DNA of 64,000 nucleotides, from contig JAUYBG010000019.1 of assembly GCA_030693205.1 (NCBI GenBank), positions 14,496-78,495 on the forward strand, in the 5' to 3' direction. A model generated the notes under the pieces. That model was not told the DNA's origin. It made no database searches and saw only the letters and a program-made list of their open reading frames with translations. The position numbers and the translations under genes are program-made. This document shows positions 6,074 to 35,960 of the stretch, one piece after another (position 1 is the stretch's first letter; every line of letters begins with the position of its first letter). The stretch comes from a bacterium (GTDB lineage: Bacteria; Patescibacteriota; Minisyncoccia; JAHIHE01).

Positions 6074-6102
6074 TTGACATATATTTTTAAACAGGTTATA
6101 AT
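6074..6102 (+). promoter_or_regulatory. consensus sigma70-type promoter for the 6128..6454 gene
   Basis: TTGACA (6074-6079), 17-nt spacer, TATAAT (6097-6102); AGGAGG Shine-Dalgarno follows, then the ATG at 6128. Confidence 0.5.
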
Positions 6103-6127
6103 AGTGTTTCATTAAGGAGGTCAGTTT

Positions 6128-6454
6128 ATGGAAATAAAAACAGACCTAAATGTTAAGGGTCTCATAAAAGCTCTAAAAGAGCACGGAATAGTTGTGAGCA
6201 AAGGAAAAAATGGAATCGAAATCGATTCTAGTGGAGTTTTTTTGGAAGGAGTTCTTCCTCCCGGGGAAACCGGAAAAAGGAAACGAATTATTCGTTTCTT
6301 TGAAAGGGGGGATGAGTCTATAGACCCATCATTTTATGGTTTTATGGCTTACCTTGCAAAAAAAGGTCCAAAAATTATAATTCGACCTTTGCCTAAAAAA
6401 AACCCGGAGACCGTAAAAAGTCTCCTTCTTTTTGGTCAAGTGGCAACATTTTAA
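6128..6454 (+). CDS. hypothetical protein (108 aa)
   Basis: Strong SD (TAAGGAGGT) 7 nt upstream of the ATG and a consensus promoter upstream; no recognisable domain. Confidence 0.5.
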   Translation: MEIKTDLNVKGLIKALKEHGIVVSKGKNGIEIDSSGVFLEGVLPPGETGKRKRIIRFFERGDESIDPSFYGFMAYLAKKGPKIIIRPLPKKNPETVKSLLLFGQVATF

Positions 6455-6501
6455 TTAAAAATTTTAGACAAAATCATAAAATTAGCATAAGATATTATTA
6501 T

Positions 6502-9486
6502 ATGGATAAAATTATAATTAGAGGCGCCAGAGAGCATAATCTGAAAAATATTGACCTGGATCTGCCGCGGGACAAATTCATAGTTTTTACGGGCGTGTCC
6601 GGTTCGGGCAAGTCGACTTTGGCTATGGATACGATTTTCGCCGAAGGTCAGAGGCGGTATTTGGAAAGTTTGTCGAGCTATGCCCGCCAATTTTTAGGCC
6701 AGATGCAAAAACCGGATGTCGATCATATCGAAGGGCTTTCGCCGACGATCGCGATCGATCAAAAATCCGCTTCGCATAATCCGCGCTCCACTGTGGGGAC
6801 AGTGACGGAAATTTATGATTATATGAGGCTTTTATTCGCGCGGGTCGGCACGCCGTATTGCGTGCGCTGTGGACGCGCGATCACTAAACTAACGATCGAA
6901 GAAATGGTGGATAAGGTTTTCGAATTATCGGAAGGAACTGAAATTCAGATCTTCGCTCCGGTGGTACAAGAGCGAAAAGGCGAGTATCGCGAATTATTTC
7001 AAATGTTTATAGGGAGAGGTTTTACTAAAGCCAGAGTGGATGGAAAAATAATTGAGCTGAAAAAAACCCTGCCTGCCGGCCCGCTTCGCCATAGCTTTAG
7101 CGAGGCGAGTAGGCAGGCGCCGGTGCTTGAGCGGTATAAAATGCATACGATCGAAATTTTAATTGACGAGCTGAAAATTTCGCACGTGAATATCAGCCGG
7201 ATATTTGAGAGTATAGAAAGCGCGGTAAAAATGGCGGATGGCATTGCAGTGGTTTCGCCAGTTATGAAAGGCAAGATCCATAAAGCTACCCTTCGACACT
7301 CCGATAGTGAACGGAATGCTCAGGGCAAGAAAATGAAGGAAGATGGCGAATTGATATTTAATTCCAATCTTGCTTGCTCGCACTGTGATTTGAGTTTCCC
7401 GGATCTTGAGCCGCGGCTTTTTTCTTTTAACAGTCCTTTTGGCGCTTGTCCGGAATGCACGGGGCTCGGCGAGAAAAAAGAAATTGATATTAACCTGATC
7501 ATGCCGGATAAAGATAAGACGATTTTTGAAGGAGGCTTTTTGCCCTGGAGCTTTACGCCGAATAATTATTATGGCGCGATCATGAAAGCGGTTTCCGAGA
7601 TGTATGATATTCCGATCAATACCAGGATAAAAGATATACCGGAGGAAAAAATAAGCTTGATTTTTAATGGACCTGAAACGCCGGAAGATTTGAAAATAAA
7701 ATATTTTTTCCACGGGCGATCAAGGGTTTTTTATACTGAGTTCAAAGGCCTAATGAAACATTTGCGCGATAGGTACGCTCGCACAGAGAGCGAATCGGTG
7801 CGCGAGGAAATAGAAAAATATATGGCGATCTATCCGTGTCCGGTCTGCGGCGGCACGCGTCTGAAGCCGGAAGCCTTGAGCGTAAAGATCGGCGACAAGA
7901 ATATTTCCGAGGTTTCTTCCCAGTCGATTTATCTTACCCGCCGATTTTTTGATAAAATAACCCATTCGACAAGCTCAGGGTCAATGAAATTAAGCGCCCG
8001 GCAGGCGATAATCGCCAGGGATATTATCAAAGAGATAAAAAATCGTTTGAAATTCCTGGATGATGTGGGTTTGGGATATTTGACCCTGACGCGCGCGGCG
8101 ATGACCTTGGCAGGAGGCGAAGCGCAAAGGATCCGGCTGGCATCGCAATTGGGATCAGCCTTAGTCGGAGTGCTATATATTCTGGATGAGCCGTCGGTTG
8201 GTTTGCACGCCCGCGATCATTATAAATTGCTTGGAACGCTTAAGAGATTGCGGGATATCGGCAATACGGTCATTGTGATCGAGCATGACGAAGAAACTAT
8301 TCGCGAGGCGGATTGGATCGTGGATATCGGGCCCGGAGCCGGCGAAAACGGAGGGCGGGTCGTAGCGGAAGGCGCTTTTCAAGATGTTTTGAAATCCAAA
8401 GAGTCGCTTACCGCGCAATATTTGCGAGGCGCAAAAAGCATTTCTATTCCTGCCCAAAGGCGAAAAACCAAGAATCATTTTTTGACGATTACCGGCGCCA
8501 ATGAAAATAATCTGAAAAACGTAAAAGTCGAGATCCCCTTGGGCGTGTTTACGCTCGTGACCGGAGTTTCCGGCAGCGGGAAATCGACCTTGATAAACGA
8601 TATTCTTTATCGGGCGCTGGCGAGGAAATTTTATCGCGCGATGGAGCGGCCCGGAAAATACAAAGAATTGAAAGGCGATAACTATCTGGATAAAGTGATC
8701 GTGATCGATCAGTCGCCGATCGGACGCACGCCGAGATCAAATCCCGCGACTTATACCGGAGTTTTTACGCATATCAGAGAATTATTCGCATCGGTTAAGG
8801 AAGCAAAAGTGCGCGGATACGAGCCGGGCCGATTCAGTTTCAATGTCGTTGGCGGCCGGTGCGAGGCCTGCAAGGGCGAGGGTTATAATAAGATCGAGAT
8901 GCAATTTTTGCCGGATGTTTATATCGCCTGCGATATTTGCAAGGGCAAGCGCTATGGACGGGAAACGCTGGAAATAAAGTACAAGGGAAAAAATATTTCC
9001 GAAGTTTTGGCTTTGAGCATTGACGAGGCACTGGAATTTTTCAGAGATATTTTCCAGATCAAAGATACTTTGCAGGTGATCTCGGATGTCGGCTTAGGAT
9101 ATATCAAGCTTGGGCAATCAGCCACCACGCTTTCGGGCGGAGAAGCGCAAAGAGTAAAATTGGCGTCCGAACTGGCCAAACGCGCCACAGGCAAAACGCT
9201 TTATATTCTTGATGAACCCACTACCGGCTTGCATTTTGACGATATCAAAAAATTATTGAATGTCTTGCACCGCCTGGTTGATGGCGGGAATTCGGTTATC
9301 GTGATCGAGCATAATCTCGACGTGATCAAACAGGCGGATTGGATAATCGATATGGGGCCGGAAGGCGGCGAGCACGGCGGCCGGATCATTGCCCAGGGTC
9401 CGCCGGAAGAAATTATAAAATACAAAGAAAGCTATACAGGGCAGTTTCTTAAAAAAGCGTTGAGATCAACAAAGAACAATCTTTAA
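6502..9486 (+). CDS. uvrA: excinuclease ABC subunit A
   Basis: 994 aa with duplicated ABC ATPase modules (GVSGSGKSTL twice, LSGGEAQR twice) and Zn-finger CxxC pairs; N-terminus is canonical UvrA (MDKIIIRGAREHNLKNIDLDLP). Confidence 0.95.
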   Translation: MDKIIIRGAREHNLKNIDLDLPRDKFIVFTGVSGSGKSTLAMDTIFAEGQRRYLESLSSYARQFLGQMQKPDVDHIEGLSPTIAIDQKSASHNPRSTVGTVTEIYDYMRLLFARVGTPYCVRCGRAITKLTIEEMVDKVFELSEGTEIQIFAPVVQERKGEYRELFQMFIGRGFTKARVDGKIIELKKTLPAGPLRHSFSEASRQAPVLERYKMHTIEILIDELKISHVNISRIFESIESAVKMADGIAVVSPVMKGKIHKATLRHSDSERNAQGKKMKEDGELIFNSNLACSHCDLSFPDLEPRLFSFNSPFGACPECTGLGEKKEIDINLIMPDKDKTIFEGGFLPWSFTPNNYYGAIMKAVSEMYDIPINTRIKDIPEEKISLIFNGPETPEDLKIKYFFHGRSRVFYTEFKGLMKHLRDRYARTESESVREEIEKYMAIYPCPVCGGTRLKPEALSVKIGDKNISEVSSQSIYLTRRFFDKITHSTSSGSMKLSARQAIIARDIIKEIKNRLKFLDDVGLGYLTLTRAAMTLAGGEAQRIRLASQLGSALVGVLYILDEPSVGLHARDHYKLLGTLKRLRDIGNTVIVIEHDEETIREADWIVDIGPGAGENGGRVVAEGAFQDVLKSKESLTAQYLRGAKSISIPAQRRKTKNHFLTITGANENNLKNVKVEIPLGVFTLVTGVSGSGKSTLINDILYRALARKFYRAMERPGKYKELKGDNYLDKVIVIDQSPIGRTPRSNPATYTGVFTHIRELFASVKEAKVRGYEPGRFSFNVVGGRCEACKGEGYNKIEMQFLPDVYIACDICKGKRYGRETLEIKYKGKNISEVLALSIDEALEFFRDIFQIKDTLQVISDVGLGYIKLGQSATTLSGGEAQRVKLASELAKRATGKTLYILDEPTTGLHFDDIKKLLNVLHRLVDGGNSVIVIEHNLDVIKQADWIIDMGPEGGEHGGRIIAQGPPEEIIKYKESYTGQFLKKALRSTKNNL

Positions 9487-9833: not shown

Positions 9834-11099
9834 ATGTCAATATCTAATATTCAAACGCAGCTGAAAAATTTGCCTTCCTCGCCTGGCGTATATTTTTTCC
9901 GCGACAAATCGGGAAAGCTTTTATATATCGGCAAAGCGATCAATTTGAAACGGCGGGTAAGTTCGTATTTCCAGTCCGCCGGTGGGCGGATTAAGTCGGA
10001 TTCCAGGATTCAAGAAATGGTGGGTAGAATCGCGAAGATTGATTACCGCAAGACTGATTCGGTGATCGAAGCGCTGATATTGGAAGCGAACCTGATTAGA
10101 CGCCATCAGCCGTTTTACAATGTCAAATTGAAAGATGATAAGAGTTTTGTGAACATTGCGATCTCGAAAGAAGAATTTCCGCGGGTTTTTATTATACGGC
10201 AGCGAGCGAAAAGACTTTTTAAAAATATTAAGATCAAGAAAATTTACGGCCCGTATCCTTCGGCTGACACGGCTCGCACCGCTTTGAAAATTCTTCGGCG
10301 GATCTTTTCGTTCAGAGGTTTGGAAAAAACCCGGGAAGGCGAGAGATTTTATCGGGAAATTTTGGCCATTCCGGAGGAAAAAGCGCGGTATGCCAAAGGG
10401 ATCAAAAACCTGATGCTTTTTTTATCAGGAAAGAAAAAACGCATCATCGGGGATTTAAAAAAAGAAATGAGGGAGCTGGCAAAAAACAAAAATTACGAAG
10501 AGGCGGGGCAGGCCAGAGACAAAATTTTTGCGCTGGAGCATATTCAAGATGTCGCACTGATCAAAGGATCAGGTTGGACGGAAGATCTGGAGACGCAAAA
10601 AGCGCCATTGCGGATCGAGGCTTACGATATTTCCAATATTTTTGGCGAGTATGCGGTCGGCAGTATGGTGGTTTTCACGAAAGGAAAAATAGACAAAGAC
10701 GAATATCGGCGTTTTCGGATCAGGCAAGTTAAGGGAATTTCCGATACGGATATGCTCGCGGAAGTTTTAAGCCGCCGGTTGAAACACAGTGAATGGAAAA
10801 TGCCGGATCTGATGATCATTGATGGCGGGGCAGGGCAATTGAATGCCGTAAAAAAGATCATCAAGGAGAAGGGACTGGATATTCCCTTGCTTTCGATAGC
10901 CAAAGGCCCGACCAGGAAGGGCGAGAAGCTTTTTATGACAAAAAATGTTTACCTAGACTCGACAGGGTTAGTTCGATTAGGCTCGTCGAGGCTGGCGCCT
11001 AGCCTGGATAAAAAAATCATTTTTGCCATACGCGACGAATCACATCGTTTTGCCATTTCTTATTATAGGAAATTAAAAAGAGCCGGAATGTGGTTTTAA
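9834..11099 (+). CDS. uvrC: excinuclease ABC subunit C, short form lacking the C-terminal HhH domain
   Basis: GIY-YIG motif (GVYFFRDKSGKLLYIGKAINLKRRVSSY), UVR domain (EEAGQARDKIFALEHI) and the UvrC RNase H-like endonuclease domain. At 421 aa it is about 180 aa shorter than canonical UvrC. Confidence 0.75.
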   Translation: MSISNIQTQLKNLPSSPGVYFFRDKSGKLLYIGKAINLKRRVSSYFQSAGGRIKSDSRIQEMVGRIAKIDYRKTDSVIEALILEANLIRRHQPFYNVKLKDDKSFVNIAISKEEFPRVFIIRQRAKRLFKNIKIKKIYGPYPSADTARTALKILRRIFSFRGLEKTREGERFYREILAIPEEKARYAKGIKNLMLFLSGKKKRIIGDLKKEMRELAKNKNYEEAGQARDKIFALEHIQDVALIKGSGWTEDLETQKAPLRIEAYDISNIFGEYAVGSMVVFTKGKIDKDEYRRFRIRQVKGISDTDMLAEVLSRRLKHSEWKMPDLMIIDGGAGQLNAVKKIIKEKGLDIPLLSIAKGPTRKGEKLFMTKNVYLDSTGLVRLGSSRLAPSLDKKIIFAIRDESHRFAISYYRKLKRAGMWF

Positions 11100-11455: not shown

Positions 11456-11899
11456 ATGATTATTGATACCTTGAAGGAGAATAAATTTTTTATGCAATTT
11501 GGCAAGTTTTTTATCGTCGGGATTTTGAATACAGGTCTTGATTTTGCTGTTCTAAATTTTTTAATGTGGATGACGCAAACTTATAAAGGGCCGTCTATGG
11601 TTATATTCGGCACGATATCGTTTGCCGTAGCGGTGACGAACAGCTATTTTTTGAATAAATACTGGACTTTTGGCGATAAAAGCAAAGAGCAGGTTCCTCA
11701 GCAATTTATAAAATTTTTAGCCGTGGCTGTCATAGGACTGGTGTTGAGTAATTCAATTATTTATTTTATAACAACTTTAGTTAATCCGATCTTTGGCTTA
11801 AGTCCGGTTCTTTGGGCGAACTTTGCCAAAGCAGTGGCGACTGGCGTAGTGCTGGTTTGGAACTTCGCGGGATACAAACTGTTTGTGTTTAAAAAGTAA
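11456..11899 (+). CDS. GtrA-family membrane protein (polysaccharide synthesis/flippase-associated)
   Basis: About 147 aa, four TM helices; GtrA-like signature (FxxVGxxNTxxDFxxLNFL ... NKYWTF). Confidence 0.6.
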   Translation: MIIDTLKENKFFMQFGKFFIVGILNTGLDFAVLNFLMWMTQTYKGPSMVIFGTISFAVAVTNSYFLNKYWTFGDKSKEQVPQQFIKFLAVAVIGLVLSNSIIYFITTLVNPIFGLSPVLWANFAKAVATGVVLVWNFAGYKLFVFKK

Positions 11900-11909
11900 A
11901 TTAATTAAT

Positions 11910-13562
11910 ATGTCTCTCGTTCTATATCGCAAATACCGGCCGAAAAATTTCAGCGAGATCATCGGCCAGGAAAAAACAGTGAAAATTTTGACCTCCGCGG
12001 TTGGCTCTGGCAGGGTGGCGCACGCGTATCTTTTTACCGGTCCGCGAGGTACGGGAAAAACCACCATTGCCAGAATTTTGGCCAAAGCGATAAATTGCAC
12101 CGCGAGAATTGGCGGCGAGCCTTGCAATAAATGCGAAAATTGCGTTACGCTGAATACCGGGAGAACCTTTGACGTAGTTGAAATTGATGCGGCTTCCAAT
12201 ACCGGCGTGGATAATATCAGAGATCTCAAAGAAAGCATCGGTTTTTCCCCGACCCATTTGAAGTACAAAGTTTTTATCATTGATGAAGTCCACATGCTAA
12301 GCAAGGGCGCTTTCAACGCTTTGCTAAAAATGCTGGAAGAGCCGCCGGAACACGCTATTTTTGTTTTAGCGACCACCGAAATTCATAAAATCCCGCCGAC
12401 GATCATTTCCCGCGTGCAAAGATTTGATTTCAGGAAATTCAGGCTCGACGAGATCGTTGAAAGGTTAAAGGATATAACCAAGCAGGAAAAAGTAAAAGTG
12501 GAAAAAGGCGTGCTGGAAGTGATCGCTTTATCCGCCGATGGGGGAATGCGAGACGCCGAAAGCATGCTCGGGCAGATAATCTCGCTTGAGGCGCCGGGAG
12601 AAGAAATAAAACTCGCGGAAGTAAAAATGGTTTTAGGGCTGACTGATACGGAATCGGTTTTAAAATTTATCGGATTTATATCAAAAAATCAGTTCAAAGA
12701 AGCGATAATTTTTTTGAATGAAATTACTTTTGAAGGGCAGGATTTGGAGCAATTTGCCGGATCGCTCATAGATATTTTCAGGAAGATCACGATTTTGAAG
12801 ACAAACCGGGATCTGAAAAAATATGTCTTAAGCGATTCTACCGAAGAGCAGGCGGAAAAATTATTAAAATTGGCCGAGGTTTTTAGCGAGCAAGAGTTGC
12901 TTTGGATATTTAAAAAATTGATCACGGCAAAGATCGAGATCAAGTCAGCGGTTTTGCCGCAGATACCGCTGGAAATAACTTTGATCGAATATGATATTTT
13001 TAAGAATAATCGCTTTGCGGTTGGAAAAAAAGCGGAAGCGGCGGTTGAAGCTAAAAAAGAACCGAAAATAGAAATTATAGCTAAAAAAAAATTAAACGAG
13101 AACGTTATTGAGCCGAAAGTTGAGAAACCGATTTTAGTTAAAGAGGCGGCTAAGGAAGAAAAAATTGAAAAAAAAGAACCGGAAGAGTTGGCAAACGAAG
13201 GTTTGATCGGTTTGGGGATCGAAGAAATAAAATCGAGCTGGAATCAAATATTGAAAATCGCTAAAAAATACAATCATTCTATCAGCGCGTTTTTGAAATT
13301 ATCCATACCTCAGGAATTAAAAAAAGATATGTTAATGCTTGCCACGCCTTATAAATTCCACGCGGAGAAACTCAACGATTCTTCCAATCGAAAAATAATC
13401 GAGAAAGTTTTGCTGGAAGTGTTCCCGATCTTAAAAAACATCAAGGTTATGGTTGTTCAGGATGAAAATATAAAAGTGGCCAAAGCGCCGGAAGAAAAAA
13501 ATAAAACAGGAGACTTAAAAGTGGATTCCGCGCTTGAGGTTTTTGGGGGAGAAGTGGAGTAA
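11910..13562 (+). CDS. dnaX: DNA polymerase III subunit gamma/tau
   Basis: Canonical N-terminus (YRKYRPKNFSEIIGQE), Walker A (GPRGTGKTT) and Zn module (CxxCxxC). ATG at 11910 is preferred over the in-frame TTG at 11883. The C-terminal roughly 95 aa are duplicated in ORF 45059..45904. Confidence 0.9.
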   Translation: MSLVLYRKYRPKNFSEIIGQEKTVKILTSAVGSGRVAHAYLFTGPRGTGKTTIARILAKAINCTARIGGEPCNKCENCVTLNTGRTFDVVEIDAASNTGVDNIRDLKESIGFSPTHLKYKVFIIDEVHMLSKGAFNALLKMLEEPPEHAIFVLATTEIHKIPPTIISRVQRFDFRKFRLDEIVERLKDITKQEKVKVEKGVLEVIALSADGGMRDAESMLGQIISLEAPGEEIKLAEVKMVLGLTDTESVLKFIGFISKNQFKEAIIFLNEITFEGQDLEQFAGSLIDIFRKITILKTNRDLKKYVLSDSTEEQAEKLLKLAEVFSEQELLWIFKKLITAKIEIKSAVLPQIPLEITLIEYDIFKNNRFAVGKKAEAAVEAKKEPKIEIIAKKKLNENVIEPKVEKPILVKEAAKEEKIEKKEPEELANEGLIGLGIEEIKSSWNQILKIAKKYNHSISAFLKLSIPQELKKDMLMLATPYKFHAEKLNDSSNRKIIEKVLLEVFPILKNIKVMVVQDENIKVAKAPEEKNKTGDLKVDSALEVFGGEVE

Positions 13563-27815: not shown

Positions 27816-28946
27816 ATGAATGTCGAAATATGTAAAAAAATAAGGCAAAAAGAGGGCTTTACGGCCTATATTCCAGCCGCTTTTCCTCCAAAAGGCATAT
27901 TTAATTTGCCTCAAAAACTTCTTATTAAGTGTGCCGAAGCGGATCGTTTAATTGGTAAGTTGGATGGTATAACGCATACGTTGCCCGATATTGAATTCTT
28001 TTTAAAAATGTATGTTGCTAAAGATGCGACTTCTTCGGCACAAATCGAAGGAACAAAAGCTACAATGATTGACGCGATAGAAATGGATGCCAAAATTGAC
28101 GTAAAACAAAGCGATGCTCAGGATATTTTGTTTTATATTACGGCTGTTAACTATGGAATAAAAAGAATCAAAGAATTTTCCTTGTCTTTGCGGTTTATCC
28201 GCGAATTGCATTCTAAACTGATGACTGGAGCGCGTTCGACTCATTTTTCCGACCCGGGTGAATTTCGTCATTCGCAAAATTGGATAGGGGGGACTACGCC
28301 GGCCAATGCTTCTTTTGTGCCGCCGTCTATAAATGAAATGAGTATCGCATTGAATGATTTTGAAAAATTCTTGCATGATAAGGAATCAACACTTCCGCTT
28401 ATACAGATTGCTTTAGTCCACGCGCAATTTGAAACTATTCATCCATTTTTGGACGGTAATGGTAGAACCGGCAGACTTTTAATTACACTTTTGATGTATC
28501 AACGCGAATTGTTGGAGCGACCAGTGCTGTTTTTATCATCTTATTTTAAAAAACACCAAAAAATTTACTACTCCAAATTAAACGGATATCACAATGGTGA
28601 AGTTGACGAATGGTTAAACTTTTTTCTCGATGGAGTTATAGAAATAGCAACTGAATCCATTGACGTATCAAAAAAAATTAGGCAATTGCGCGATGATGAT
28701 ATGACAAAAATTCAAAGTTTGGCAAGGCGAGAATCGGAAAGCGGGGTAAGGGTTTTATCCAATCTTTTCGCGAATCCCATTATTAACACAAGAATTATAA
28801 TGGGATGGACGGGATTTACTCGTGCAGGAGCTCAAAAATTGATCGATCGTTTTGTTGAACTGGATATATTGGAAACTATGGATAAAAAAGGCGTGTATGA
28901 TCGGAAATATACATATAGAAAATATTTAGATTCATTTATTATGTAA
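27816..28946 (+). CDS. Fic/Doc family protein (AMPylation/phosphocholination-type filamentation domain)
   Basis: Canonical Fic motif HPFLDGNGRTGR; about 376 aa with a C-terminal wHTH-like region. Confidence 0.85.
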   Translation: MNVEICKKIRQKEGFTAYIPAAFPPKGIFNLPQKLLIKCAEADRLIGKLDGITHTLPDIEFFLKMYVAKDATSSAQIEGTKATMIDAIEMDAKIDVKQSDAQDILFYITAVNYGIKRIKEFSLSLRFIRELHSKLMTGARSTHFSDPGEFRHSQNWIGGTTPANASFVPPSINEMSIALNDFEKFLHDKESTLPLIQIALVHAQFETIHPFLDGNGRTGRLLITLLMYQRELLERPVLFLSSYFKKHQKIYYSKLNGYHNGEVDEWLNFFLDGVIEIATESIDVSKKIRQLRDDDMTKIQSLARRESESGVRVLSNLFANPIINTRIIMGWTGFTRAGAQKLIDRFVELDILETMDKKGVYDRKYTYRKYLDSFIM

Positions 28947-29073: not shown

Positions 29074-29095
29074 AATGTGGATAACTTAATGTGGA
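29074..29095 (+). promoter_or_regulatory. direct-repeat candidate operator (AATGTGGA-N6-AATGTGGA) upstream of the LexA-MTase gene
   Basis: Two exact 8-mers at 29074-29081 and 29088-29095; a TAGTATAAT -10-like element lies downstream, 40-50 nt before the ATG. Confidence 0.3.
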
Positions 29096-29157
29096 CTTTC
29101 TACTTTTGTTCTAGTATAATATTAGTATAAATTAGAAAATAAATTTTTAGTAATATT

Positions 29158-30579
29158 ATGCTCACGAAAAAACAAAAAAATGTTCTTGATTATATTCAGG
29201 AATATTTTCAAAAAAATGGTTTTAGCCCTTCGTATAATGAAATAAGAAAACGGTTTAAGCTTTCTTCCGTTTCCACGGTGAATCATTATATAAAAATTCT
29301 TCAAAAAAAGGGATATATTAAACAAGAGAAAAATACCGCTCGCGCCGTAGAAGTTAATTCACATGAAAGTTTAGTTAGTATTCCGTTAAAGGGATACATC
29401 GCCGCCGGCCAGCCTATTGAAGCGGTTGAAGAATATGAAACAATAGCTGTGCCTAAAAATTTACTTTCTTCGTCTGGCAAGCATTTCGCTTTAAGTGTTA
29501 AAGGGGATAGCATGATTGACGAGGGTATTTTTGATGGCGACACTGTGATTATTAGAAAACAAAATACAGTTGAGAATGGAGAAACAGCAGTTGCATTGAT
29601 AAATGGCAATGAGGTTACTCTCAAAAAAATTTATAAAGAAAAAAACAGAGTTAGATTGCAACCTGCTAACCCTAAGCTAAATCCCTTTTTTGTAAAGAAC
29701 GTACTTATTCAGGGTAAGGTGATTAGTACTATTAGAACTATTGAGGAACGGGTGAAAAAGGAAAAAAAAGAGGAACCTGTTTATTACGAAAAACCAGGGT
29801 TTAAGCTTTATCAAGCAAATTGTTTGAATATTCTCGTTGCGCTTCCTGAAAATTCAGTTGATATGGTTTTCGCTGATCCGCCTTATCTTCTTTCTAACGG
29901 TGGTTTCACTGTTCACGCCGGGCGGCGCGTTAGTGTAAATAAAGGCGAATGGGATAAAAGTAATGGACTGAAGAAAGATTTTGAATTTCACCTCGAATGG
30001 ATACAAGCTGTCAGACGTGTATTAAAGCCGCAAGGCACGCTTTGGATTAGTGGAACTTATCACTCGATTTATCAATGCGGATTTGCGCTTCAAGTCGCGG
30101 GATTCCATGTTCTTAATGATATTGCGTGGTTTAAACCGAATGCATCGCCGAATCTTAGTTGCCGTTTTTTTACTGCTAGTCACGAAACACTTATTTGGGC
30201 TAGAAAAGATAAAAAAGCAAAGCATATTTTTAATTATGATTTAATGAAAAATGGTACTTGGCCGGAAGATGCGCTAAAGAAGCCGGGACTTCAAATGCGT
30301 TCAGTTTGGTCCATGGGAACGCCTAAACCAATCGAAAAGAAGTTTGGTAAGCATCCAACGCAAAAACCCGAAGATTTATTAAAAAGAATTGTGCTAGCAA
30401 GCACAAACAAAGGCGATCTTATTCTCGATCCTTTTACTGGAAGTTCAACAACGGGGATTGCGGCATATTTGTTCGGCAGAAAATTTATTGGTATAGATCT
30501 TGATAAAAAGTTTTTAGATGTATCAATAAAACGATTCGAGGAGTTAGATAAAAATTTGAAAAATAAAAAGCCAAAATGA
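29158..30579 (+). CDS. fusion protein: complete LexA-type repressor (wHTH, Ala-Gly autocleavage site, S24 Ser/Lys peptidase) fused to a beta-class N6-adenine/N4-cytosine DNA methyltransferase
   Basis: Residues 1-195 align with LexA: DNA-binding helix region, cleavage site GYIAAGQPIEA (cf. VAAGEPLLA), catalytic Ser in VKGDSMIDEGIFDGDTV and Lys in EVTLKKIYKE. After a K/E-rich linker come MTase motif IV (FADPPYLL) and motif I (ILDPFTGSSTTGIAA) in the beta-class order IV then I. Confidence 0.75.
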   Translation: MLTKKQKNVLDYIQEYFQKNGFSPSYNEIRKRFKLSSVSTVNHYIKILQKKGYIKQEKNTARAVEVNSHESLVSIPLKGYIAAGQPIEAVEEYETIAVPKNLLSSSGKHFALSVKGDSMIDEGIFDGDTVIIRKQNTVENGETAVALINGNEVTLKKIYKEKNRVRLQPANPKLNPFFVKNVLIQGKVISTIRTIEERVKKEKKEEPVYYEKPGFKLYQANCLNILVALPENSVDMVFADPPYLLSNGGFTVHAGRRVSVNKGEWDKSNGLKKDFEFHLEWIQAVRRVLKPQGTLWISGTYHSIYQCGFALQVAGFHVLNDIAWFKPNASPNLSCRFFTASHETLIWARKDKKAKHIFNYDLMKNGTWPEDALKKPGLQMRSVWSMGTPKPIEKKFGKHPTQKPEDLLKRIVLASTNKGDLILDPFTGSSTTGIAAYLFGRKFIGIDLDKKFLDVSIKRFEELDKNLKNKKPK

Positions 30580-30965
30580 AAAATACACATTCTATAAAAA
30601 TACCAGGTTATGTATCAGGATGGACTTATAAATACTTTCATCAGTCTGCCTATGAACCTCCTTGGAATTTTCCAAATAAAAAAGTTATTACATTTTTATT
30701 CCAATTTAAAAGAAAGGAAAAAATAAAACTTTTTAGAGGAATAAATAAGTACAATAAAGATACATCGTATATTGTGAGTTGGACATATGATAAAGAAATT
30801 GCATTAAACTACATAGAGGATGGTGGTAAAATTATTGAAAAGAATTTTTATTCAAATGATATTTTATTAGATACTACTGTACTGAATAACGAACAAAAGA
30901 TATTGTTGGGTTATGATTATAAAATTGACGATAAAGAAGTTTTAATAATAGAAAATAATAATTAA
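30576..30965 (+). CDS. hypothetical protein (129 aa) translationally coupled to the LexA-MTase gene
   Basis: ATG overlaps the MTase TGA stop (ATGA); Lys/Tyr-rich, no recognisable domain. Confidence 0.45.
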   Translation: MKNTHSIKIPGYVSGWTYKYFHQSAYEPPWNFPNKKVITFLFQFKRKEKIKLFRGINKYNKDTSYIVSWTYDKEIALNYIEDGGKIIEKNFYSNDILLDTTVLNNEQKILLGYDYKIDDKEVLIIENNN

Positions 30966-30974
30966 ATTAAAAAT

Positions 30975-31745
30975 ATGGCAAACGGTAGATCTTGGAAAAA
31001 AATATTTGATGATTATAAAATTCTAGATCATGATTTTAATGAATCGCCATTTTCACTTTCAGCAATGCAAATTAAAAAAGCTTGCCAAAGATTTAAGGAA
31101 ACTAGTGAAAAAGAGATTCGTATTTTATGCAAGCAAGATAGTAGAGAAGACAGACCAGACATTTTTCAGAAACATAATCTTTTTTTGCTTCCCGTAAAAA
31201 ATGGTTACTATAATATTATTAGGGGTGAGGGATATATTGATATTCCGGATATTAAAAAAGAAGTATCGATTTATCCTTCAAAACTCGACTTTATACCTGA
31301 CACAACAAAGGTTGGTAATTCAGAAATGCAGCACCTTGATTATGCTTACGCCGCTAGTTTAATACGAACATTTACAAACGATCCGTCGCTGGTATTAACT
31401 ATAAGGGGTAGAAAATATACTCCAGATTTTGATTTTTTTGTCGGAAAACAACAGATTAAAGTATCAAGCGTGCAAACAGAAGTTGACGCTGGTTATGAGG
31501 GAAAAAATCAAGTCGTGTTGATTGAGGCAAAAAATTTTAGTGCGATAAATGTTATTATTCGCCAACTTTATTATCCGTTTAGGCAATGGCAGGAAAAAAC
31601 AAAGAAAAAAGTTATTACACTTTTCTTCGATAAAAATCACAACGAAGATGTTTATTCTATATGGCAGTTTGAGTTTGAAGATCCAAAAAATTACAATAGT
31701 ATCAGGTTAGTAAAATCTGGTAAGTTTAGAATTAAGGATAAATAA
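30975..31745 (+). CDS. putative PD-(D/E)xK nuclease (candidate Type II restriction endonuclease partner of the MTase)
   Basis: PD...ExK-type signature (TPDFDFF ... EVDAGYEGKNQVVLIEAKN); sits directly downstream of the methyltransferase. Confidence 0.45.
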   Translation: MANGRSWKKIFDDYKILDHDFNESPFSLSAMQIKKACQRFKETSEKEIRILCKQDSREDRPDIFQKHNLFLLPVKNGYYNIIRGEGYIDIPDIKKEVSIYPSKLDFIPDTTKVGNSEMQHLDYAYAASLIRTFTNDPSLVLTIRGRKYTPDFDFFVGKQQIKVSSVQTEVDAGYEGKNQVVLIEAKNFSAINVIIRQLYYPFRQWQEKTKKKVITLFFDKNHNEDVYSIWQFEFEDPKNYNSIRLVKSGKFRIKDK

Positions 31746-31846: not shown

Positions 31847-33511
31847 ATGGCAACATTACAGGATTTTTCACTTTTAAACACCTACATTGAGAAGTATAAA
31901 AAAGATTATAAATTACAAAATCTAGCTACGGCCTTTCCTTTATTTGCCTTGGATGCAATTTTAAGCTTGCAAGAAGATGAAATGAAAGATTCTATAACCG
32001 ATGGTGGAAATGATGGTGGAATTGATGCAGTCTATATAGATGAACATTTATCTCCTGCAAAAATTTATTTCTTTCAGTTTAAATATAAAACAAAGTATGG
32101 AGGTATTAACTGTAATTTTCCAGCAGTCGAGATAGATAAAATTTTCAATACAATTAAAGATATTTTACATAAAGAAAAAAATTTAGAGAAATACGTTAAC
32201 CCTATATTATATCAAAAAATTAAGCACATATGGAATATATTTGAAAATGAAAATCCCAAATTCGTGATTTGCTTGTGTTCAAACTTAGAGAATAATTTAA
32301 TAAAAGCACAACAAGATCGTTTTGAACAACAAATTAATTCTTATCAAAATTTCCAAATAGAATATTATAATATAAATAATTTTGTTGCCCTAATTCTTAA
32401 TAAAGGGAAAAAGCAGATAGATGGAAAAATAAAAGCAATAGATACAAATTATTTTTCTAGGATTGATGGAACCGTAAGAGCGTTAATAGCAAATGTTGAT
32501 GCTGATGAATTATTAAGTTTGGTTAAGGACGAAACAAGTGGTAAAATAAAGGAGGATATTTTAAACGATAATGTAAGAATTTATTTACAGGCAAGGACTA
32601 GAATAAATAGAAGTATAAAAGATACCGCTTTAGATAAAGCAAATAATTATAAATTCTTTTATTTTAATAATGGTATTACTCTGACCTGCGATAGTTTTAC
32701 ATATACGCCTTCCCAGAGAGCACCTTTGATAGAACTAACAAATATTCAAATAGTTAATGGAGGACAGACAATTCATTCTTTGTATGATGCATACAAAGAG
32801 GATAAAGAAGCAATGAAAAGCATTACTCTTTTATTAAGAATTTATGAAACAAAAAATTTAGAACTATCACAACAAATAGCAGAGTACACAAATAGTCAAA
32901 ATCCAGTTAAGAGTAGAGATATAAGATCGAACGATTATATGCAGAAAAAATTAGAAAGCGAACTTTTGCAAAAAGGTTATTTTTATGAAAGAAAGAAAAA
33001 TTATTATAAAGATAAATCCAAAAATAAACGTTTGGATTCTGAAAAAATAGGACAGGTTTTAATGGCATTTTATAGTGAAATGCCAGCAGAAGCCAAAAAT
33101 AAAAAACAATTAATATTTAGCGATAAATACGAAGAAGTGTTTACTGATGATTTAACTGCAGAAAAGATTCTCTTACCTTTTCTGCTTTTTGATAAAATCG
33201 AAGGCGAGAAAAATAAAAAAAGGGTTAAAATATCCAAAATGAAAAGTGAACAAAAAATAGAAAAAGAGTCTTATGTTTTATATGGCTCTTATTATATTCT
33301 ATATTTTTTGAAAAAAATATCAGAAAAAAATGGATTATCCATTGATTACAAAAATAGAAATAAAATTTTTAACAATTATTTTATTGTTGTTAAAAAAATT
33401 AAAGAATTCATCGAGGAAGAAAAAAAAGAAAATGCGAAATATTTTCATGGCGATTTCTTTAAGGGTAATAAGCTTAAAGAAATGATCGAAAATTATATTT
33501 CTAATTATTAA
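31847..33511 (+). CDS. AIPR-like abortive-infection family protein (N-terminal restriction-endonuclease-fold motif), putative
   Basis: 554 aa; N-terminal ITDGGNDGGIDAVYID...FQFKYK matches the D...(E/Q)xK core seen in AIPR/Mrr-like N-termini; long K/E-rich helical C-terminus. Confidence 0.4.
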   Translation: MATLQDFSLLNTYIEKYKKDYKLQNLATAFPLFALDAILSLQEDEMKDSITDGGNDGGIDAVYIDEHLSPAKIYFFQFKYKTKYGGINCNFPAVEIDKIFNTIKDILHKEKNLEKYVNPILYQKIKHIWNIFENENPKFVICLCSNLENNLIKAQQDRFEQQINSYQNFQIEYYNINNFVALILNKGKKQIDGKIKAIDTNYFSRIDGTVRALIANVDADELLSLVKDETSGKIKEDILNDNVRIYLQARTRINRSIKDTALDKANNYKFFYFNNGITLTCDSFTYTPSQRAPLIELTNIQIVNGGQTIHSLYDAYKEDKEAMKSITLLLRIYETKNLELSQQIAEYTNSQNPVKSRDIRSNDYMQKKLESELLQKGYFYERKKNYYKDKSKNKRLDSEKIGQVLMAFYSEMPAEAKNKKQLIFSDKYEEVFTDDLTAEKILLPFLLFDKIEGEKNKKRVKISKMKSEQKIEKESYVLYGSYYILYFLKKISEKNGLSIDYKNRNKIFNNYFIVVKKIKEFIEEEKKENAKYFHGDFFKGNKLKEMIENYISNY

Positions 33512-33608: not shown

Positions 33609-34325
33609 ATGCAATTTCTTAAAAAGCAGGCTGAAAAATTTGACAAAAAGGCGGAAAAAATATTGATACTTATTGTTCTCGTTTCTTTTTTAGTTGGTTA
33701 TTTTATTGGAAAAAATAATTCTTTAGATAGTTTGTATGGTTTCTTTATAGCTGGAATTTTCTTGGGAATAGTATCTATGCTTTTAGTTTTACAAAGAGAT
33801 AAATTTGTAAAAAAATCTAGGGATTATAGTAAAGGTTTTCAGGGAGAAAAATATTTTAAGGAATTTTTAGATCAGAACAAGAGTTTTTGTGGTTTTGAAT
33901 ACATTGATGATATAAAATTAGAGTATGGCAATGCCGATTTTTTAATTGTGAACGATAATGGAGTTTTTTGTATTGAAGTAAAAAATACTACAGGGAAAAT
34001 AACTTATGATGTTAAAAAAGATAGTTTGCTTTGTAACTTTAAACTTTTTGACAAGGATTATTTAAAGCAGGTTAAACGAAATTCTGTATTTATTCGTAAT
34101 ATTATCAAGGAAAAAATTAATGAATTTCAATATGTTCATCCGGTTTTAGTATTCTCAGGTCTTGGATCTAATTTGGAAACAGGTGAAAAAATAGGAGATG
34201 TTTATGTCTTGAGACCAGAAGAATTATTGATATTATTAAAGCAAAACATAAATCAAAAACTGAATAAAGAATTACAAGGTAAAATTATAAAATTGATGCG
34301 GGAATATAAAGAGTCGAAAAGATAA
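33609..34325 (+). CDS. NERD (nuclease-related domain) protein with N-terminal transmembrane helices
   Basis: Two TM helices, then GNADFLIVNDNGVFCIEVKN (D...D...ExK), the NERD/PD-(D/E)xK signature. Confidence 0.5.
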   Translation: MQFLKKQAEKFDKKAEKILILIVLVSFLVGYFIGKNNSLDSLYGFFIAGIFLGIVSMLLVLQRDKFVKKSRDYSKGFQGEKYFKEFLDQNKSFCGFEYIDDIKLEYGNADFLIVNDNGVFCIEVKNTTGKITYDVKKDSLLCNFKLFDKDYLKQVKRNSVFIRNIIKEKINEFQYVHPVLVFSGLGSNLETGEKIGDVYVLRPEELLILLKQNINQKLNKELQGKIIKLMREYKESKR

Positions 34326-34843: not shown

Positions 34844-35413
34844 ATGAAAGAAAAAGCTATAAAAGCTTCCAAGATAATTTTAAAAGGCATATTATTAGGC
34901 GGCGCGGTTGCGATAGCTGCCACTTCGCCGAATTTTGTTCAAAAAATATTGCCCAAGATACTGAAACGGGCTTCCTTTGAGTGGAAAAAATACAAGAATA
35001 AGAAAAAGTTTTTAAATTCTTTTAACTATCTTAAAAGTTCCGGCCTGATCAATATGGAATACAAAGGTAATCAGTTATATGTGTCTCTGACCGAGGAAGG
35101 AAAAAAGAAGGTTAAAAAATACTGGATTGACGATCTCAAGATAACAAAACCGGAAAAATGGGATGGCAAGTGGAGAATTATGATCTTTGACGTAAAAGAT
35201 AAGCAAAAAATAAAAAGAGAAGCGCTGAGAGGCAAGATAAAGGAGCTTGGATTGTATCAGCTTCAAAAAAGCGTTTGGGTTTGTCCGTATAATTTTGAGA
35301 AAGAAGCGGGGATTTTAAGAGATTTTTTTGGGTTTAATTTTGAAGAAATGAAATTAATTATAGCTTCGGAAATAGAAGGGGATGGAGCAATCCGTCAACA
35401 TTTCAAGCTTTAA
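34844..35413 (+). CDS. PaaX-like protein (wHTH plus Cas2-like fold C-terminal domain) with N-terminal hydrophobic segment
   Basis: KWDGKWRIMIFDVKDKQKIKREALRGKIKELGLYQLQKSVWVCPY matches the PaaX/Cas2-like beta-alpha-beta pattern (hhhYDV...R..L...G.RLQ.SVW). Confidence 0.45.
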   Translation: MKEKAIKASKIILKGILLGGAVAIAATSPNFVQKILPKILKRASFEWKKYKNKKKFLNSFNYLKSSGLINMEYKGNQLYVSLTEEGKKKVKKYWIDDLKITKPEKWDGKWRIMIFDVKDKQKIKREALRGKIKELGLYQLQKSVWVCPYNFEKEAGILRDFFGFNFEEMKLIIASEIEGDGAIRQHFKL

Positions 35414-35654: not shown

Positions 35655-35960
35655 ATGGAGACAAATGAAAGTGAAAAATTTTTTACAAACGAAGAATACC
35701 ATAAGAATAATTATTTGGAGATGACTAGAAAAACAGAAGAACAAATGGCCGTAATTGAAGAAAAATACAAAAAGGGAAATGTTTTTATATGGGAAGGTTT
35801 TTTCAATGAAATAAAAGATATGGAACAAGCGGAAGTAAGTGCGTATATCAAAGAAGAACTTCAATATATGGAGCCAATAGATCGTTTAACCGTTAAAAGT
35901 TGCGTTGGAGTTCTTATGGCGAACGAAGCGGAAAAAAAGAAATATGGATTTACATATTAA
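35655..35960 (+). CDS. hypothetical protein (101 aa)
   Basis: Acidic, helical; no recognisable domain. Confidence 0.4.
   Translation: METNESEKFFTNEEYHKNNYLEMTRKTEEQMAVIEEKYKKGNVFIWEGFFNEIKDMEQAEVSAYIKEELQYMEPIDRLTVKSCVGVLMANEAEKKKYGFTY

What the first reader, a model, noticed from the sequence alone, without database searches (positions are those of the whole stretch)
29158..31745. Restriction-modification-like operon whose methyltransferase is fused to a complete, cleavage-competent LexA repressor
The first gene (473 aa) encodes the whole LexA architecture: a wHTH DNA-binding domain, the Ala-Gly scissile bond (GYIAAGQPIEA) and the S24 peptidase Ser/Lys dyad (GDSM ... TLKK). A linker joins it to a beta-class (motif IV then I; DPPY ... 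FxGxG) DNA methyltransferase. A 129-aa unknown gene follows, its ATG overlapping the MTase stop, and then a PD-(D/E)xK nuclease. R-M systems are normally controlled by small C-proteins or HTH-MTase fusions. A full SOS-type autocleaving repressor fused to the modification enzyme would tie R-M expression or activity to RecA*/DNA damage, since cleavage would remove the DNA-binding domain from the MTase. I am not aware of a described LexA-MTase fusion, so this is the strongest candidate in the window for a new regulatory architecture.
Basis: partly seen in the sequence, partly recalled or inferred. Interest (0 to 1): 0.85.

Follow-up and report, generated by a model that had tools for sequence, protein, structure and literature searches.

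The report
LexA repressor fused to restriction-modification methyltransferase
A complete, self-cleaving SOS-type LexA repressor is fused to the methyltransferase of a restriction-modification operon. It belongs to a widespread and apparently undescribed family in candidate-phyla-radiation (CPR) bacteria, in which the same LexA cassette and its own operator-bearing promoter are attached to many different methyltransferases, probably linking restriction-modification expression to DNA damage.

Summary
ORF 29158-30579 (473 aa) has a LexA wHTH, an S24 peptidase domain with Ala83-Gly84, Ser118 and Lys156, a K/E linker, and a beta-class N6/N4 DNA methyltransferase. A 129-aa gene and a PD-(D/E)xK Type II restriction enzyme follow, inside a SoFic/AbiU/NERD defence island.

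It is not an assembly artefact. More than 120 protein clusters share the architecture. 72 of 88 close relatives of the LexA module are fused, to at least 15 methyltransferase groups of three classes. 64 of 66 have a tightly adjacent partner gene, and most tested partners are recognisable restriction enzymes.

The cassette carries its own promoter. An 11-bp-period direct repeat (TTCTAC-N5-TTCTAG, 29098-29114) fills the -35/-10 spacer and co-varies with the LexA recognition helix. A perfect DnaA box (29076-29084) sits just upstream.

Best explanation: a portable, autorepressing, RecA*-cleavable controller of Type II R-M. Cleavage and induction are inferred, not shown. No description was found in searchable literature; the 2017 Patescibacteria SOS paper could not be read.

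The 129-aa gene unexpectedly has an ADP-ribosyltransferase-like fold.

The parts
29076..29084 (-). Perfect DnaA-box 9-mer (TGTGGATAA on the + strand = TTATCCACA on the - strand), just upstream of the -35.
   Evidence: It is the only perfect copy in the 64-kb window. A perfect box lies within 130 bp upstream of 57 of 80 LexA-module genes, against 1 of 70 unfused MTase genes and 1.1% of random 130-bp windows. It occurs in either orientation next to the -35. DnaA binding was not tested.
29092..29097 (+). -35 hexamer TGGACT.
   Evidence: Best promoter-like site in the region: TGGACT-17-TATAAT, 10 of 12 matches. Relatives have TTGGAC/TTGACA at the same place.
29098..29114 (+). Predicted LexA operator TTCTACTTTTGTTCTAG. 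It is an 11-bp-period direct repeat and fills the 17-bp promoter spacer exactly.
   Evidence: - It is the only exact match in the window.
- The regex [GT]TTC[GT][GA]-N5-[GT]TTC[GT][GA] hits 91 times in 1.53 Mb, and 69 of those are at lexA-module promoters.
- It is present upstream of 63 of 80 LexA-module genes, 0 of 70 unfused MTase genes, and 0.7% of random windows.
- The half-site co-varies with the recognition helix.
- In 48 of 66 loci it ends within 2 nt of a -10-like hexamer.
29115..29120 (+). -10 hexamer TATAAT.
29158..30579 (+). LexA-MTase fusion gene, 473 aa.
- wHTH: res 2-63
- Cleavage site Ala83-Gly84: nt 29404-29409
- Ser118: nt 29509-29511
- Lys156: nt 29623-29625
- S24 domain: res 77-189
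- K/E linker: res ~195-208 (nt 29740-29781)
- Beta-class MTase: res 209-473
- DPPY: nt 29875-29886
- DPFTGSS: nt 30427-30447
   Evidence: PADLOC MTase_II PDLC03371, E=1e-96. Unfused relatives start at MQKPYYEKP, which corresponds to res ~205 of the fusion.
30576..30965 (+). 129-aa accessory gene, translationally coupled to the MTase gene (ATGA overlap). It has an ADP-ribosyltransferase-like fold with candidate R54 / S68-W-T / D119-x-E121 motifs.
   Evidence: - No Pfam, NCBIfam, PADLOC or PDB sequence hit.
- The AF2 model has pLDDT 82.5.
- R54, S68 and E121 are invariant in 40 homologues.
- It follows fused and unfused copies of this MTase, and is fused in-frame to its C-terminus in L002 and L005.
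30975..31745 (+). Type II restriction endonuclease candidate, 256 aa, with PD-(D/E)xK motif D171...E184-x-K186 (nt 31485-31532).
   Evidence: - Pfam DUF6996+DUF6997.
- PADLOC REase_II PDLC03513, E=5e-32.
- The motif is invariant in 26 sequences.
- The weak Foldseek top hits are all PD-(D/E)xK nucleases: Cas4-family ACE1, SSO0001, RecU, R.BspD6I, Hjc. The model has pLDDT of only 62.8.
- The same gene follows unfused MTases in L015, L018, L032, L033, L059 and L065, and a fused one in L092.

Best explanation
The locus is a Type II restriction-modification operon (MTase, small ART-fold gene, PD-(D/E)xK REase). Its controller is a complete LexA repressor fused to the N-terminus of the methyltransferase.

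Proposed mechanism:
1. The fusion protein dimerises through its S24 domain (inferred).
2. It binds the direct-repeat operator TTCTAC-N5-TTCTAG, which fills the spacer of its own promoter. It thereby represses itself and the co-transcribed downstream genes. This is predicted from comparative data and is the best-supported step.
3. This gives the same dosage feedback as SsoII-type HTH-MTase fusions and C proteins. Expression bursts in a naive host, then settles at a low set-point (inferred by analogy).
4. When RecA filaments form on ssDNA, the Ala83-Gly84 bond is cut by the Ser118/Lys156 dyad. Triggers could be general DNA damage, self-restriction of under-methylated host DNA, or processing of restricted phage DNA. 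The wHTH is released and the promoter is de-repressed (inferred from invariant residues only).
5. The output is more methyltransferase. In this co-directional operon the output also includes more REase and ART-like protein.

The LexA module, together with its promoter (operator plus an adjacent DnaA box), is a portable cassette. CPR bacteria have recombined it onto at least 15 MTase groups of the alpha, beta and gamma classes.
For: Architecture and catalytic residues.

Recurrence:
- More than 120 clusters share the architecture.
- 72 of 88 LexA-module ORFs are fused and only 5 are stand-alone.
- Among the 55 nearest 50%-identity cluster representatives in 1.84 billion proteins, 35 are at least 400 aa and only 8 are LexA-sized. 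More distant hits are ~200 aa.

Purifying selection on cleavage: A-G, Ser and Lys are invariant in 89 of 89 modules.

Modularity:
- C-terminal parts fall into at least 15 clusters, covering N6_N4_Mtase, N6_Mtase/Eco57I/TaqI_C and D12.
- The window's LexA part is 84.5% identical to that of L081, whose MTase is only 40% identical. The window's MTase is 94% identical to an unfused gene in L009.

R-M context:
- 64 of 66 fused genes have a tight neighbour, 21 co-directional and 43 convergent.
- 14 of 20 representative neighbours match distinct REase families. One more is MutH/Sau3AI-like.

Autoregulation:
- Helix/operator co-variation: ST[VI]HQH pairs with TTCGG in 32 of 33 loci; STVNHY, STVSHY and ST.HFH pair with TTCTA in 22 of 24.
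- The operator occupies the promoter spacer.

Functional analogy: unfused copies of the same MTase are preceded by Xre HTH_3 (C-protein-like) genes.

Mobility: 60 upstream neighbours fall into 58 clusters. L130 has two tandem units. The window's unit lies in a low-GC island between SoFic and AbiU.

Unbalanced R-M is known to induce SOS (review PMC3874152).
Against: - No experiment shows DNA binding, self-cleavage or damage induction.
- In this operon the REase is co-transcribed, so de-repression would raise R and M together. The physiological benefit (restriction alleviation versus boosted defence) is therefore unclear.
- An in-frame GTG preceded by GAGGA sits in the linker (nt 29752). It could allow LexA-independent MTase translation.
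- The fate and activity of the S24-MTase cleavage product are unknown.
- Whether the host has RecA, or another LexA, could not be checked.
- The operator class is shared with stand-alone CPR LexA genes (L114, L126-128), so cross-talk with a host SOS network is possible.
- MTase specificity is unknown. GANTC is not avoided in the window (O/E 0.93).
Confidence: 0.6

Rival explanations
1. The fused protein is the organism's genuine, global SOS repressor. In these reduced CPR genomes lexA simply carries a methyltransferase domain, so the main role is SOS regulation of repair genes and R-M control is secondary.
For: - It scores above the NCBIfam lexA equivalog cutoff, and UniProt names a family member 'LexA repressor'.
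- Stand-alone CPR LexA genes share the same operator types and are interspersed with fused ones.
- A Patescibacteria LexA regulon with a direct-repeat motif has been reported. It is cited in PMC7739468, but the paper itself could not be read.
Against: - In 1.53 Mb of flanks the operator is essentially confined to the module's own promoter.
- uvrA, uvrC and dnaX in the window lack it.
- There is no conserved synteny.
- L130 has two units side by side.
- Almost every fused gene is paired with a REase-like neighbour.
- The module is swapped between MTase families.
Confidence: 0.18
2. The LexA module acts only as a DNA-binding and dimerisation module, i.e. an SsoII-like autoregulator. Self-cleavage has no physiological role, and the system is not damage-responsive.
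For: Autoregulation alone explains the operator. HTH-MTase fusions without any protease are known: EcoRII and SsoII, references in PMC3874152. Variants lacking the wHTH but keeping S24+MTase exist (L007, L140, L157).
Against: Ala-Gly, Ser and Lys are invariant in 89 of 89 modules that are otherwise only 48-85% identical. That conservation is hard to explain without selection for cleavage. A simple HTH would suffice for autoregulation and is in fact used by unfused relatives.
Confidence: 0.12
3. Cleavage is a suicide or abortive-infection trigger. Damage-induced cleavage destabilises or mislocalises the methyltransferase, methylation lapses, and the REase (and/or the ART-like protein) kills the cell.
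For: The unit lies in a defence island next to the abortive-infection genes AbiU and SoFic. An ART-fold, toxin-like gene is embedded in the operon. In E. coli, LexA fragments are degraded after cleavage (own knowledge).
Against: Cleavage also de-represses the promoter, so new full-length MTase would be made. S24-MTase proteins without the wHTH persist in nature (L007, P0015, P0032), which suggests the cleavage-product-like form is tolerated and functional. There is no direct evidence for instability.
Confidence: 0.08
4. Artefact: a frameshift, chimeric assembly or read-through joining separate lexA and MTase genes.
For: The linker DNA is purine-rich, like a translated Shine-Dalgarno region. 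The exact protein is absent from NCBI's protein set although its two downstream neighbours are present.
Against: The same fusion occurs in more than 120 clusters and 72 independently assembled loci, with intact reading frames and many different linkers.
Confidence: 0.01

Closest known systems
MTases with an N-terminal regulatory DNA-binding region (M.SsoII, M.Ecl18kI, M.EcoRII, M.MspI, M.ScrFI)
   Same: A DNA-binding domain is fused to the N-terminus of the R-M methyltransferase. It binds the system's own promoter and autoregulates MTase dosage (references 169-172 in PMC3874152; details from own knowledge).
   Different: Those are C5-MTases with a short HTH-like arm. They have no protease domain, no cleavage site and no link to RecA/SOS. 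Here the module is a full 200-aa LexA with an S24 peptidase, fused to N6/N4 MTases of three classes.
C-protein (controller) Type II R-M systems (e.g. PvuII, BamHI, Esp1396I)
   Same: A dedicated transcription factor encoded at the 5' end of the R-M unit binds a repeat operator in its own promoter. Specificity classes appear to co-evolve with their operators. Unfused copies of this very MTase have an Xre HTH_3 gene in the C-protein position.
   Different: C proteins are separate ~80-aa Xre-type proteins that mainly time REase expression. The controller here is covalently part of the MTase, belongs to the LexA family, binds a direct repeat rather than a palindrome, and is predicted to be inactivated by self-cleavage.
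Canonical LexA / SOS autoregulation, including direct-repeat binders (Alphaproteobacteria GTTC-N7-GTTC; Patescibacteria LexA of Sanchez-Osuna et al. 2017)
   Same: Same domain order, cleavage site and dyad, and it scores above the lexA equivalog cutoff. The operator in its own promoter is an 11-bp-period direct repeat containing (G/T)TTC, like the alphaproteobacterial box (PMC7739468).
   Different: It is fused to a 265-aa MTase and embedded in a mobile R-M unit. No regulon was seen in the flanks or upstream of uvrA in the window. An adjacent conserved DnaA box is present.
S24-family repressors of mobile elements and SOS-controlled toxin systems (lambda CI, ICE SetR, LexA-repressed symE/tisB/yafNO)
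   Same: A selfish or defence module is placed under a RecA*-cleavable repressor, so that DNA damage switches it on (PMC3874152; phage examples in 10.1101/2024.08.14.607894).
   Different: In those systems the repressor is a separate protein, or the host LexA. Here it is fused to the 'antitoxin-like' enzyme (the MTase) of the module itself. No phage record carries the fusion.
CcrM/HinfI-type beta-class N6-adenine MTases
   Same: Best structural and sequence relative (6pbd 1.2e-56; NF050803 2.4e-71), with motif order IV then I.
   Different: It is far below the CcrM equivalog cutoff (240 versus 830 bits). It lacks the ~100-aa CcrM C-terminal domain, matching only positions 6-252 of 350. It is paired with REases, and its specificity is unknown.

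Membership tests
LexA repressor (TIGR00498; MEROPS S24) | N-terminal winged-HTH LexA DNA-binding domain | tested here: met
   PF01726 res 2-63, E=4e-16. It aligns to LexA structures from residue 2.
LexA repressor (TIGR00498; MEROPS S24) | Ala-Gly scissile bond and Ser/Lys catalytic dyad in register with E. coli A84-G85, S119 and K156 | tested here: met
   A83-G84, S118 and K156. They are invariant in 89 of 89 family members.
LexA repressor (TIGR00498; MEROPS S24) | Scores above the curated equivalog threshold | tested here: met
   190.7 bits against a cutoff of 110.95.
LexA repressor (TIGR00498; MEROPS S24) | Operator in its own promoter (autoregulation) | tested here: met
   This is a comparative prediction only. 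The direct repeat sits in the promoter spacer, is enriched against controls, and co-varies with the recognition helix.
LexA repressor (TIGR00498; MEROPS S24) | Controls an SOS regulon (recA, uvrA, translesion polymerases) | tested here: inconclusive
   No operator lies upstream of uvrA, uvrC or dnaX in the window, or anywhere else in 1.53 Mb of flanks. Whole genomes could not be scanned.
LexA repressor (TIGR00498; MEROPS S24) | RecA*-stimulated self-cleavage | not testable with these tools
   Needs biochemistry.
Type II restriction-modification system | DNA MTase with SAM-binding motif I and catalytic motif IV | tested here: met
   PF01555 1-219 of 221, E=6e-57. DPPY and DPFTGSS are present. 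PADLOC MTase_II 1e-96.
Type II restriction-modification system | Adjacent restriction endonuclease gene | tested here: met
   PADLOC REase_II PDLC03513, 5e-32. Invariant D...ExK. Weak fold hits only to PD-(D/E)xK nucleases.
Type II restriction-modification system | MTase and REase share one recognition sequence; cleavage is blocked by methylation | not testable with these tools
   Specificity is unknown. GANTC O/E is 0.93 in the window. Some relatives pair the same MTase with a MutH/Sau3AI-like nuclease.
C-protein-controlled R-M | Separate small Xre-type HTH controller gene with a palindromic C-box | tested here: not met
   The window has none. The controller is fused and LexA-type. HTH_3 genes occur only upstream of unfused relatives.
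SsoII-type autoregulatory MTase | N-terminal DNA-binding extension on the MTase that binds its own promoter | tested here: met
   The architecture and predicted operator fit. Binding is untested.
SsoII-type autoregulatory MTase | C5-cytosine MTase catalytic domain with a short HTH arm | tested here: not met
   The domain is N6_N4 beta-class, and the extension is a full LexA with an S24 peptidase.
CcrM (NF050803 equivalog) | Full-length match including the C-terminal DNA-binding domain, above cutoff | tested here: not met
   240.5 bits against 830, covering only model positions 6-252 of 350. orf129 is not a CcrM C-terminal domain.
ADP-ribosyltransferase, R-S-E type (for the 129-aa gene) | ART fold with Arg on beta1, S-x-S/T on beta2, and ExE before beta5 | tested here: inconclusive
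   [not shown]
DnaA box | 9-mer TTATCCACA | tested here: met
   A perfect match at 29076-29084, unique in the window. Present in 57 of 80 promoters against 1.1% background. DnaA binding is untested.

The most novel reading that the evidence does not exclude
CPR bacteria possess a portable 'sensor-controller cassette' for restriction-modification systems. It consists of a promoter that combines a DnaA box with a LexA direct-repeat operator, plus a complete self-cleaving LexA that recombines at its linker onto MTases of any class.

This would give Type II R-M a closed feedback loop. Breaks caused by self-restriction or by restricted phage DNA generate RecA*, RecA* triggers autocleavage, and the R-M unit is de-repressed. 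It may also give a replication-status input through DnaA.

Operator/recognition-helix classes would act as incompatibility groups, analogous to C-boxes. In this MTase family a minimal ADP-ribosyltransferase-like protein adds a second, NAD-dependent activity.
Probability: 0.35. Interest if true: 0.88.

Novelty: new variant of a known kind. Interest (0 to 1): 0.78.

Why it matters
R-M systems must balance a toxin (the REase) against an antidote (the MTase). Known controllers are C proteins, HTH arms on MTases, antisense RNAs and methylation-sensitive promoters, and none of them senses DNA damage. A self-cleaving LexA fused to the MTase would be the first R-M controller wired directly to RecA*. 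It offers a testable answer to how Type II systems cope with autoimmunity or boost defence after the first cut.

The family is large. It covers hundreds of clusters, at least 15 MTase groups and many REase families. It also shows clear helix/operator co-variation, so it is a ready-made natural dataset for LexA-DNA recognition codes and for orthogonal, damage-inducible repressor/operator pairs.

There is an annotation consequence too. The same proteins are labelled either 'LexA repressor' or 'modification methylase', so SOS-regulon reconstructions and R-M censuses in CPR genomes may both be miscounting them.

The DnaA box in the promoter and the ART-fold gene are further unexplored leads.

Tried and rejected
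1. AATGTGGA repeats as the operator. Rejected: only the first copy is conserved, as a DnaA box. The second is the -35 (TTGGAC in relatives). The two-copy pattern has no other instance in the window.
3. Frameshift or assembly artefact. Rejected.
4. Phage origin. No fusion was found in IMG/VR (3 weak stand-alone LexA loci) or in GenBank phages (0 records covering at least 80%). The best case is adjacent but separate cI and MTase genes in an Acinetobacter phage.
5. Fixed chromosomal lexA with swapped downstream cassettes. Rejected because upstream synteny is absent.
6. Inferring specificity from palindrome avoidance. GANTC O/E is 0.93, which is uninformative.
7. Second operator at 35725-35741. 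It is antisense inside an ORF with no -10, so it is a chance match.
8. REase structure. The AF2 model is poor (pLDDT 62.8), so fold evidence is weak.
9. The afdb50 fold library was unavailable.
10. Literature. Eight full-text searches and a look through two reviews (PMC3874152, PMC13076061) found no description of a LexA-MTase fusion. The key 2017 Patescibacteria SOS paper is not held, so prior mention there cannot be excluded.


Full report
1. WHAT IS IN THE SEQUENCE

The 129-aa gene's ATG overlaps the upstream TGA as ATGA.

The 473-aa protein has three Pfam domains: LexA_DNA_bind (res 2-63), Peptidase_S24 (77-189) and N6_N4_Mtase (234-456). It passes NCBI's lexA equivalog model over its full length, 190.7 bits against a cutoff of 110.95. 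BLASTP against E. coli LexA, and phmmer against solved LexA structures (3k2z, 1jhh), put Ala83-Gly84, Ser118 and Lys156 in register with A84-G85, S119 and K156.

The MTase part is beta class, with DPPY before DPFTGSS. It is closest to CcrM (6pbd, 1.2e-56) but lacks CcrM's C-terminal domain and is far below the CcrM equivalog cutoff.

The 256-aa protein matches DUF6996+DUF6997 and a REBASE-derived PADLOC Type II REase model (5e-32). It has an invariant D171...E184-x-K186 motif. A mediocre AF2 model (pLDDT 62.8) gives only weak fold hits, but all of the top ones are PD-(D/E)xK nucleases.

The unit sits in a low-GC stretch (26-35%) between SoFic and AbiU/AIPR, followed by NERD and a PaaX_M/Cas2-like gene. 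This defence island lies within ordinary chromosomal genes such as trxB-like, gdh, SOD, uvrA, uvrC and dnaX.

2. NOT AN ARTEFACT, AND NOT A ONE-OFF

More than 120 protein clusters at 60-100% identity, from NCBI, JGI, ENA and Logan assemblies, have the same three domains. They are annotated only as 'modification methylase' or, in UniProt, 'LexA repressor'.

In one-genome-per-species contigs, 8 of the 80 best loci are fusions. The other 72 carry the same MTase unfused at 73-94% identity. Those unfused genes start at MQKPYYEKP, which is exactly the junction residue in the fusion.

Searching metagenomes with the LexA part alone gave the key result. Of 88 LexA-module ORFs, 72 are fused (412-825 aa), 11 run off their contigs, and only 5 are stand-alone. 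The C-terminal parts fall into at least 15 clusters. By Pfam these are beta-class N6_N4 MTases (several subfamilies, one circularly permuted), gamma-class N6_Mtase/Eco57I (one with TaqI_C) and alpha-class D12 MTases.

An exhaustive search of 1.84 billion cluster representatives agrees. Among the 55 nearest relatives of the LexA part, 35 are at least 400 aa and only 8 are LexA-sized. More distant hits (under ~47% identity) are ordinary ~200-aa LexA proteins.

The modules are shuffled. The window's LexA part is 84.5% identical to that of L081, whose MTase is only 40% identical. The window's MTase is 94% identical to an unfused gene (L009) and 92% identical to that of L002, whose LexA part is only 54% identical.

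3. THEY ARE R-M SYSTEMS

Of 66 fused genes with enough downstream sequence, 64 have a partner ORF within 80 nt, 21 co-directional and 43 convergent. Of 20 representative partners, 14 match different REase families: eight PADLOC REase_II models plus BsaWI-like and PvuII-like Pfam hits. Another relative has a MutH/Sau3AI-family partner.

Upstream neighbours are unrelated, with 60 loci giving 58 clusters. L130 carries two such units in tandem, one of them decaying. No phage record carries the fusion. The whole promoter-LexA-MTase(-REase) unit therefore behaves like a mobile R-M cassette. It does not behave like a fixed chromosomal lexA.

4. THE PROMOTER

Upstream regions of LexA-module genes share one architecture whatever MTase follows: a DnaA-box 9-mer, a -35, an 11-bp-period direct repeat [GT]TTC[GT][GA]-N5-[GT]TTC[GT][GA], and then TATAAT.

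In the window the elements are:
- DnaA box TGTGGATAA, 29076-29084
- -35 TGGACT, 29092-29097
- Operator TTCTACTTTTGTTCTAG, 29098-29114, which is exactly the 17-bp spacer
- -10 TATAAT, 29115-29120

Controls for the operator regex:
- Upstream of LexA-module genes: 63 of 80
- Upstream of unfused MTase genes: 0 of 70
- Random 130-bp windows: 0.7%

Of 91 regex hits in 1.53 Mb, 69 are at these promoters and most of the rest lie inside ORFs. In 48 of 66 loci the repeat ends within 2 nt of a -10-like hexamer.

The half-site co-varies with the recognition helix. ST[VI]HQH pairs with TTCGG in 32 of 33 loci. STVNHY, STVSHY and ST.HFH pair with TTCTA in 22 of 24. This is the strongest available evidence that the repeat is the module's own operator. 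It also fits the report that Patescibacteria LexA recognises a direct repeat, as cited in PMC7739468.

The perfect DnaA box is unique in the 64-kb window. A perfect box lies upstream of 57 of 80 LexA-module genes, against 1 of 70 unfused MTase genes and 1.1% of random windows. Its role is unknown.

5. MECHANISM

Shown by sequence and comparison:
- A complete LexA with conserved cleavage chemistry is covalently joined to R-M methyltransferases.
- It carries an operator in its own core promoter.
- The cassette is modular and mobile.
- Unfused copies of the same MTase use an Xre-type HTH gene in the C-protein position. The LexA module therefore occupies the controller niche.

Inferred:
- The fusion represses its own operon, which in the window is M, ART-like gene and R, with no convincing internal promoter or terminator.
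- RecA* triggers Ala83-Gly84 cleavage, releasing the wHTH and de-repressing the unit.
- Unbalanced R-M activity itself induces SOS (PMC3874152). The loop could therefore sense self-restriction and top up methylation. This is most natural for the 43 convergent systems, where only M is under the operator. Alternatively it could amplify defence after the first cut of phage DNA.

I put 0.6 on this controller model overall. Autorepression is more likely than that. Damage induction is less certain.

Rivals, each scored in its own section: a genuine global SOS LexA with a passenger MTase (0.18), a non-cleaving SsoII-like autoregulator (0.12), and a cleavage-triggered suicide switch (0.08).

6. COMPARISON AND NOVELTY

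Functionally it works like SsoII/EcoRII-type autoregulatory MTases and like C proteins. Structurally, the N-terminal 200 aa meet every sequence-testable criterion for LexA.

It is not a member of the C-protein class (no separate Xre gene). It is not SsoII-type in the strict sense (not a C5-MTase, and the extension is not a short HTH arm). It is not CcrM (below cutoff, no C-terminal domain).

I found no description of a LexA-MTase fusion in eight full-text searches, nor in two reviews of R-M regulation and MTase biology. The 2017 Patescibacteria SOS paper, which must have handled some of these proteins, could not be read. I therefore rate it a new variant of a known kind, namely R-M controllers and MTase-fused repressors, rather than categorically new.

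7. SIDE FINDING

This gene accompanies this MTase family with or without a REase, and is sometimes fused to the MTase C-terminus. My earlier idea that it is the missing CcrM C-terminal domain was not supported.

Noticed in passing
[not shown]
   Followed up: partly
window 29076-29084, and 57 of 80 related promoters: A perfect DnaA box (TTATCCACA/TGTGGATAA) is conserved next to the -35 of LexA-module promoters, in either orientation and sometimes twice (e.g. L104-L108, L111, L125). It is absent upstream of unfused MTases. This suggests a replication-status input to lexA-MTase transcription.
   Followed up: partly
L012:1853-2065, L020:7786-7983 (also L017, L029, L046): Unfused copies of the same MTase (86-93% identical) are preceded by a 61-71 aa Xre/HTH_3 gene in the classical C-protein position. 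One MTase family therefore uses either a C-protein-like controller or a fused LexA.
   Followed up: partly
window 27816-28946, 31847-33511, 33609-34325, 34844-35413: A defence island surrounds the unit: SoFic (PADLOC 1e-104), AbiU/AIPR (5e-61), a NERD nuclease-related protein and a PaaX_M/Cas2-like protein. GC falls to 26-31% across 30-36 kb, against ~40% in the flanks.
   Followed up: partly
L007:7965-9203, L140:2186-4024, L157, L160; P0015, P0032: Variants keep the cleavage site, S24 domain and MTase but lack the wHTH, so they resemble the predicted cleavage product. L140 additionally ends in a staphylococcal-nuclease (SNase) domain. L007 has no operator or DnaA box upstream.
   Followed up: no
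L130:2468-4051 and 5001-6854: Two LexA-MTase units lie in tandem, each with a convergent partner gene. The first has two in-frame stop codons inside its wHTH. This could be a pseudogene or an alternative genetic code; it was not resolved.
   Followed up: partly
L085:4278-4973 and L086: A Bro-N domain gene (a family typical of phage antirepressor-like proteins) lies between the operator-bearing promoter and the LexA-MTase gene. It would therefore be co-repressed with it.
   Followed up: no
window 29746-29778: The linker DNA is purine-rich (GAGGAACGGGTGAAAAAGGAAAAAAAAGAGGAA), like a translated Shine-Dalgarno region. It contains an in-frame GTG (29752) four bases after GAGGA, a possible internal start for a LexA-free MTase.
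   Followed up: no
L009-L080 and P0121-P0240: Both the MTase (73-94% identity) and the DUF6996/6997 REase (81-90%) are unusually conserved across MAGs labelled as different CPR phyla. This implies recent horizontal spread. The same MTase type is paired with at least two unrelated REase families: DUF6996/7, and MutH/Sau3AI-like in L001, L002, L004 and L165.
   Followed up: partly
window 376-1470, 6502-9486, 9834-11099, 11883-13562: RmuC, UvrA, UvrC and DnaX genes lie upstream in the window. None has the LexA-type direct repeat in front of it.
   Followed up: partly
window 29158-30579 versus NCBI record: The two downstream proteins are in NCBI (locus tags Q8N37_04380 and Q8N37_04385, 89,861-bp contig, '[bacterium]'). 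The exact 473-aa fusion protein is found only in a Logan assembly, so the NCBI annotation may have dropped it or marked it as a pseudogene.
   Followed up: no
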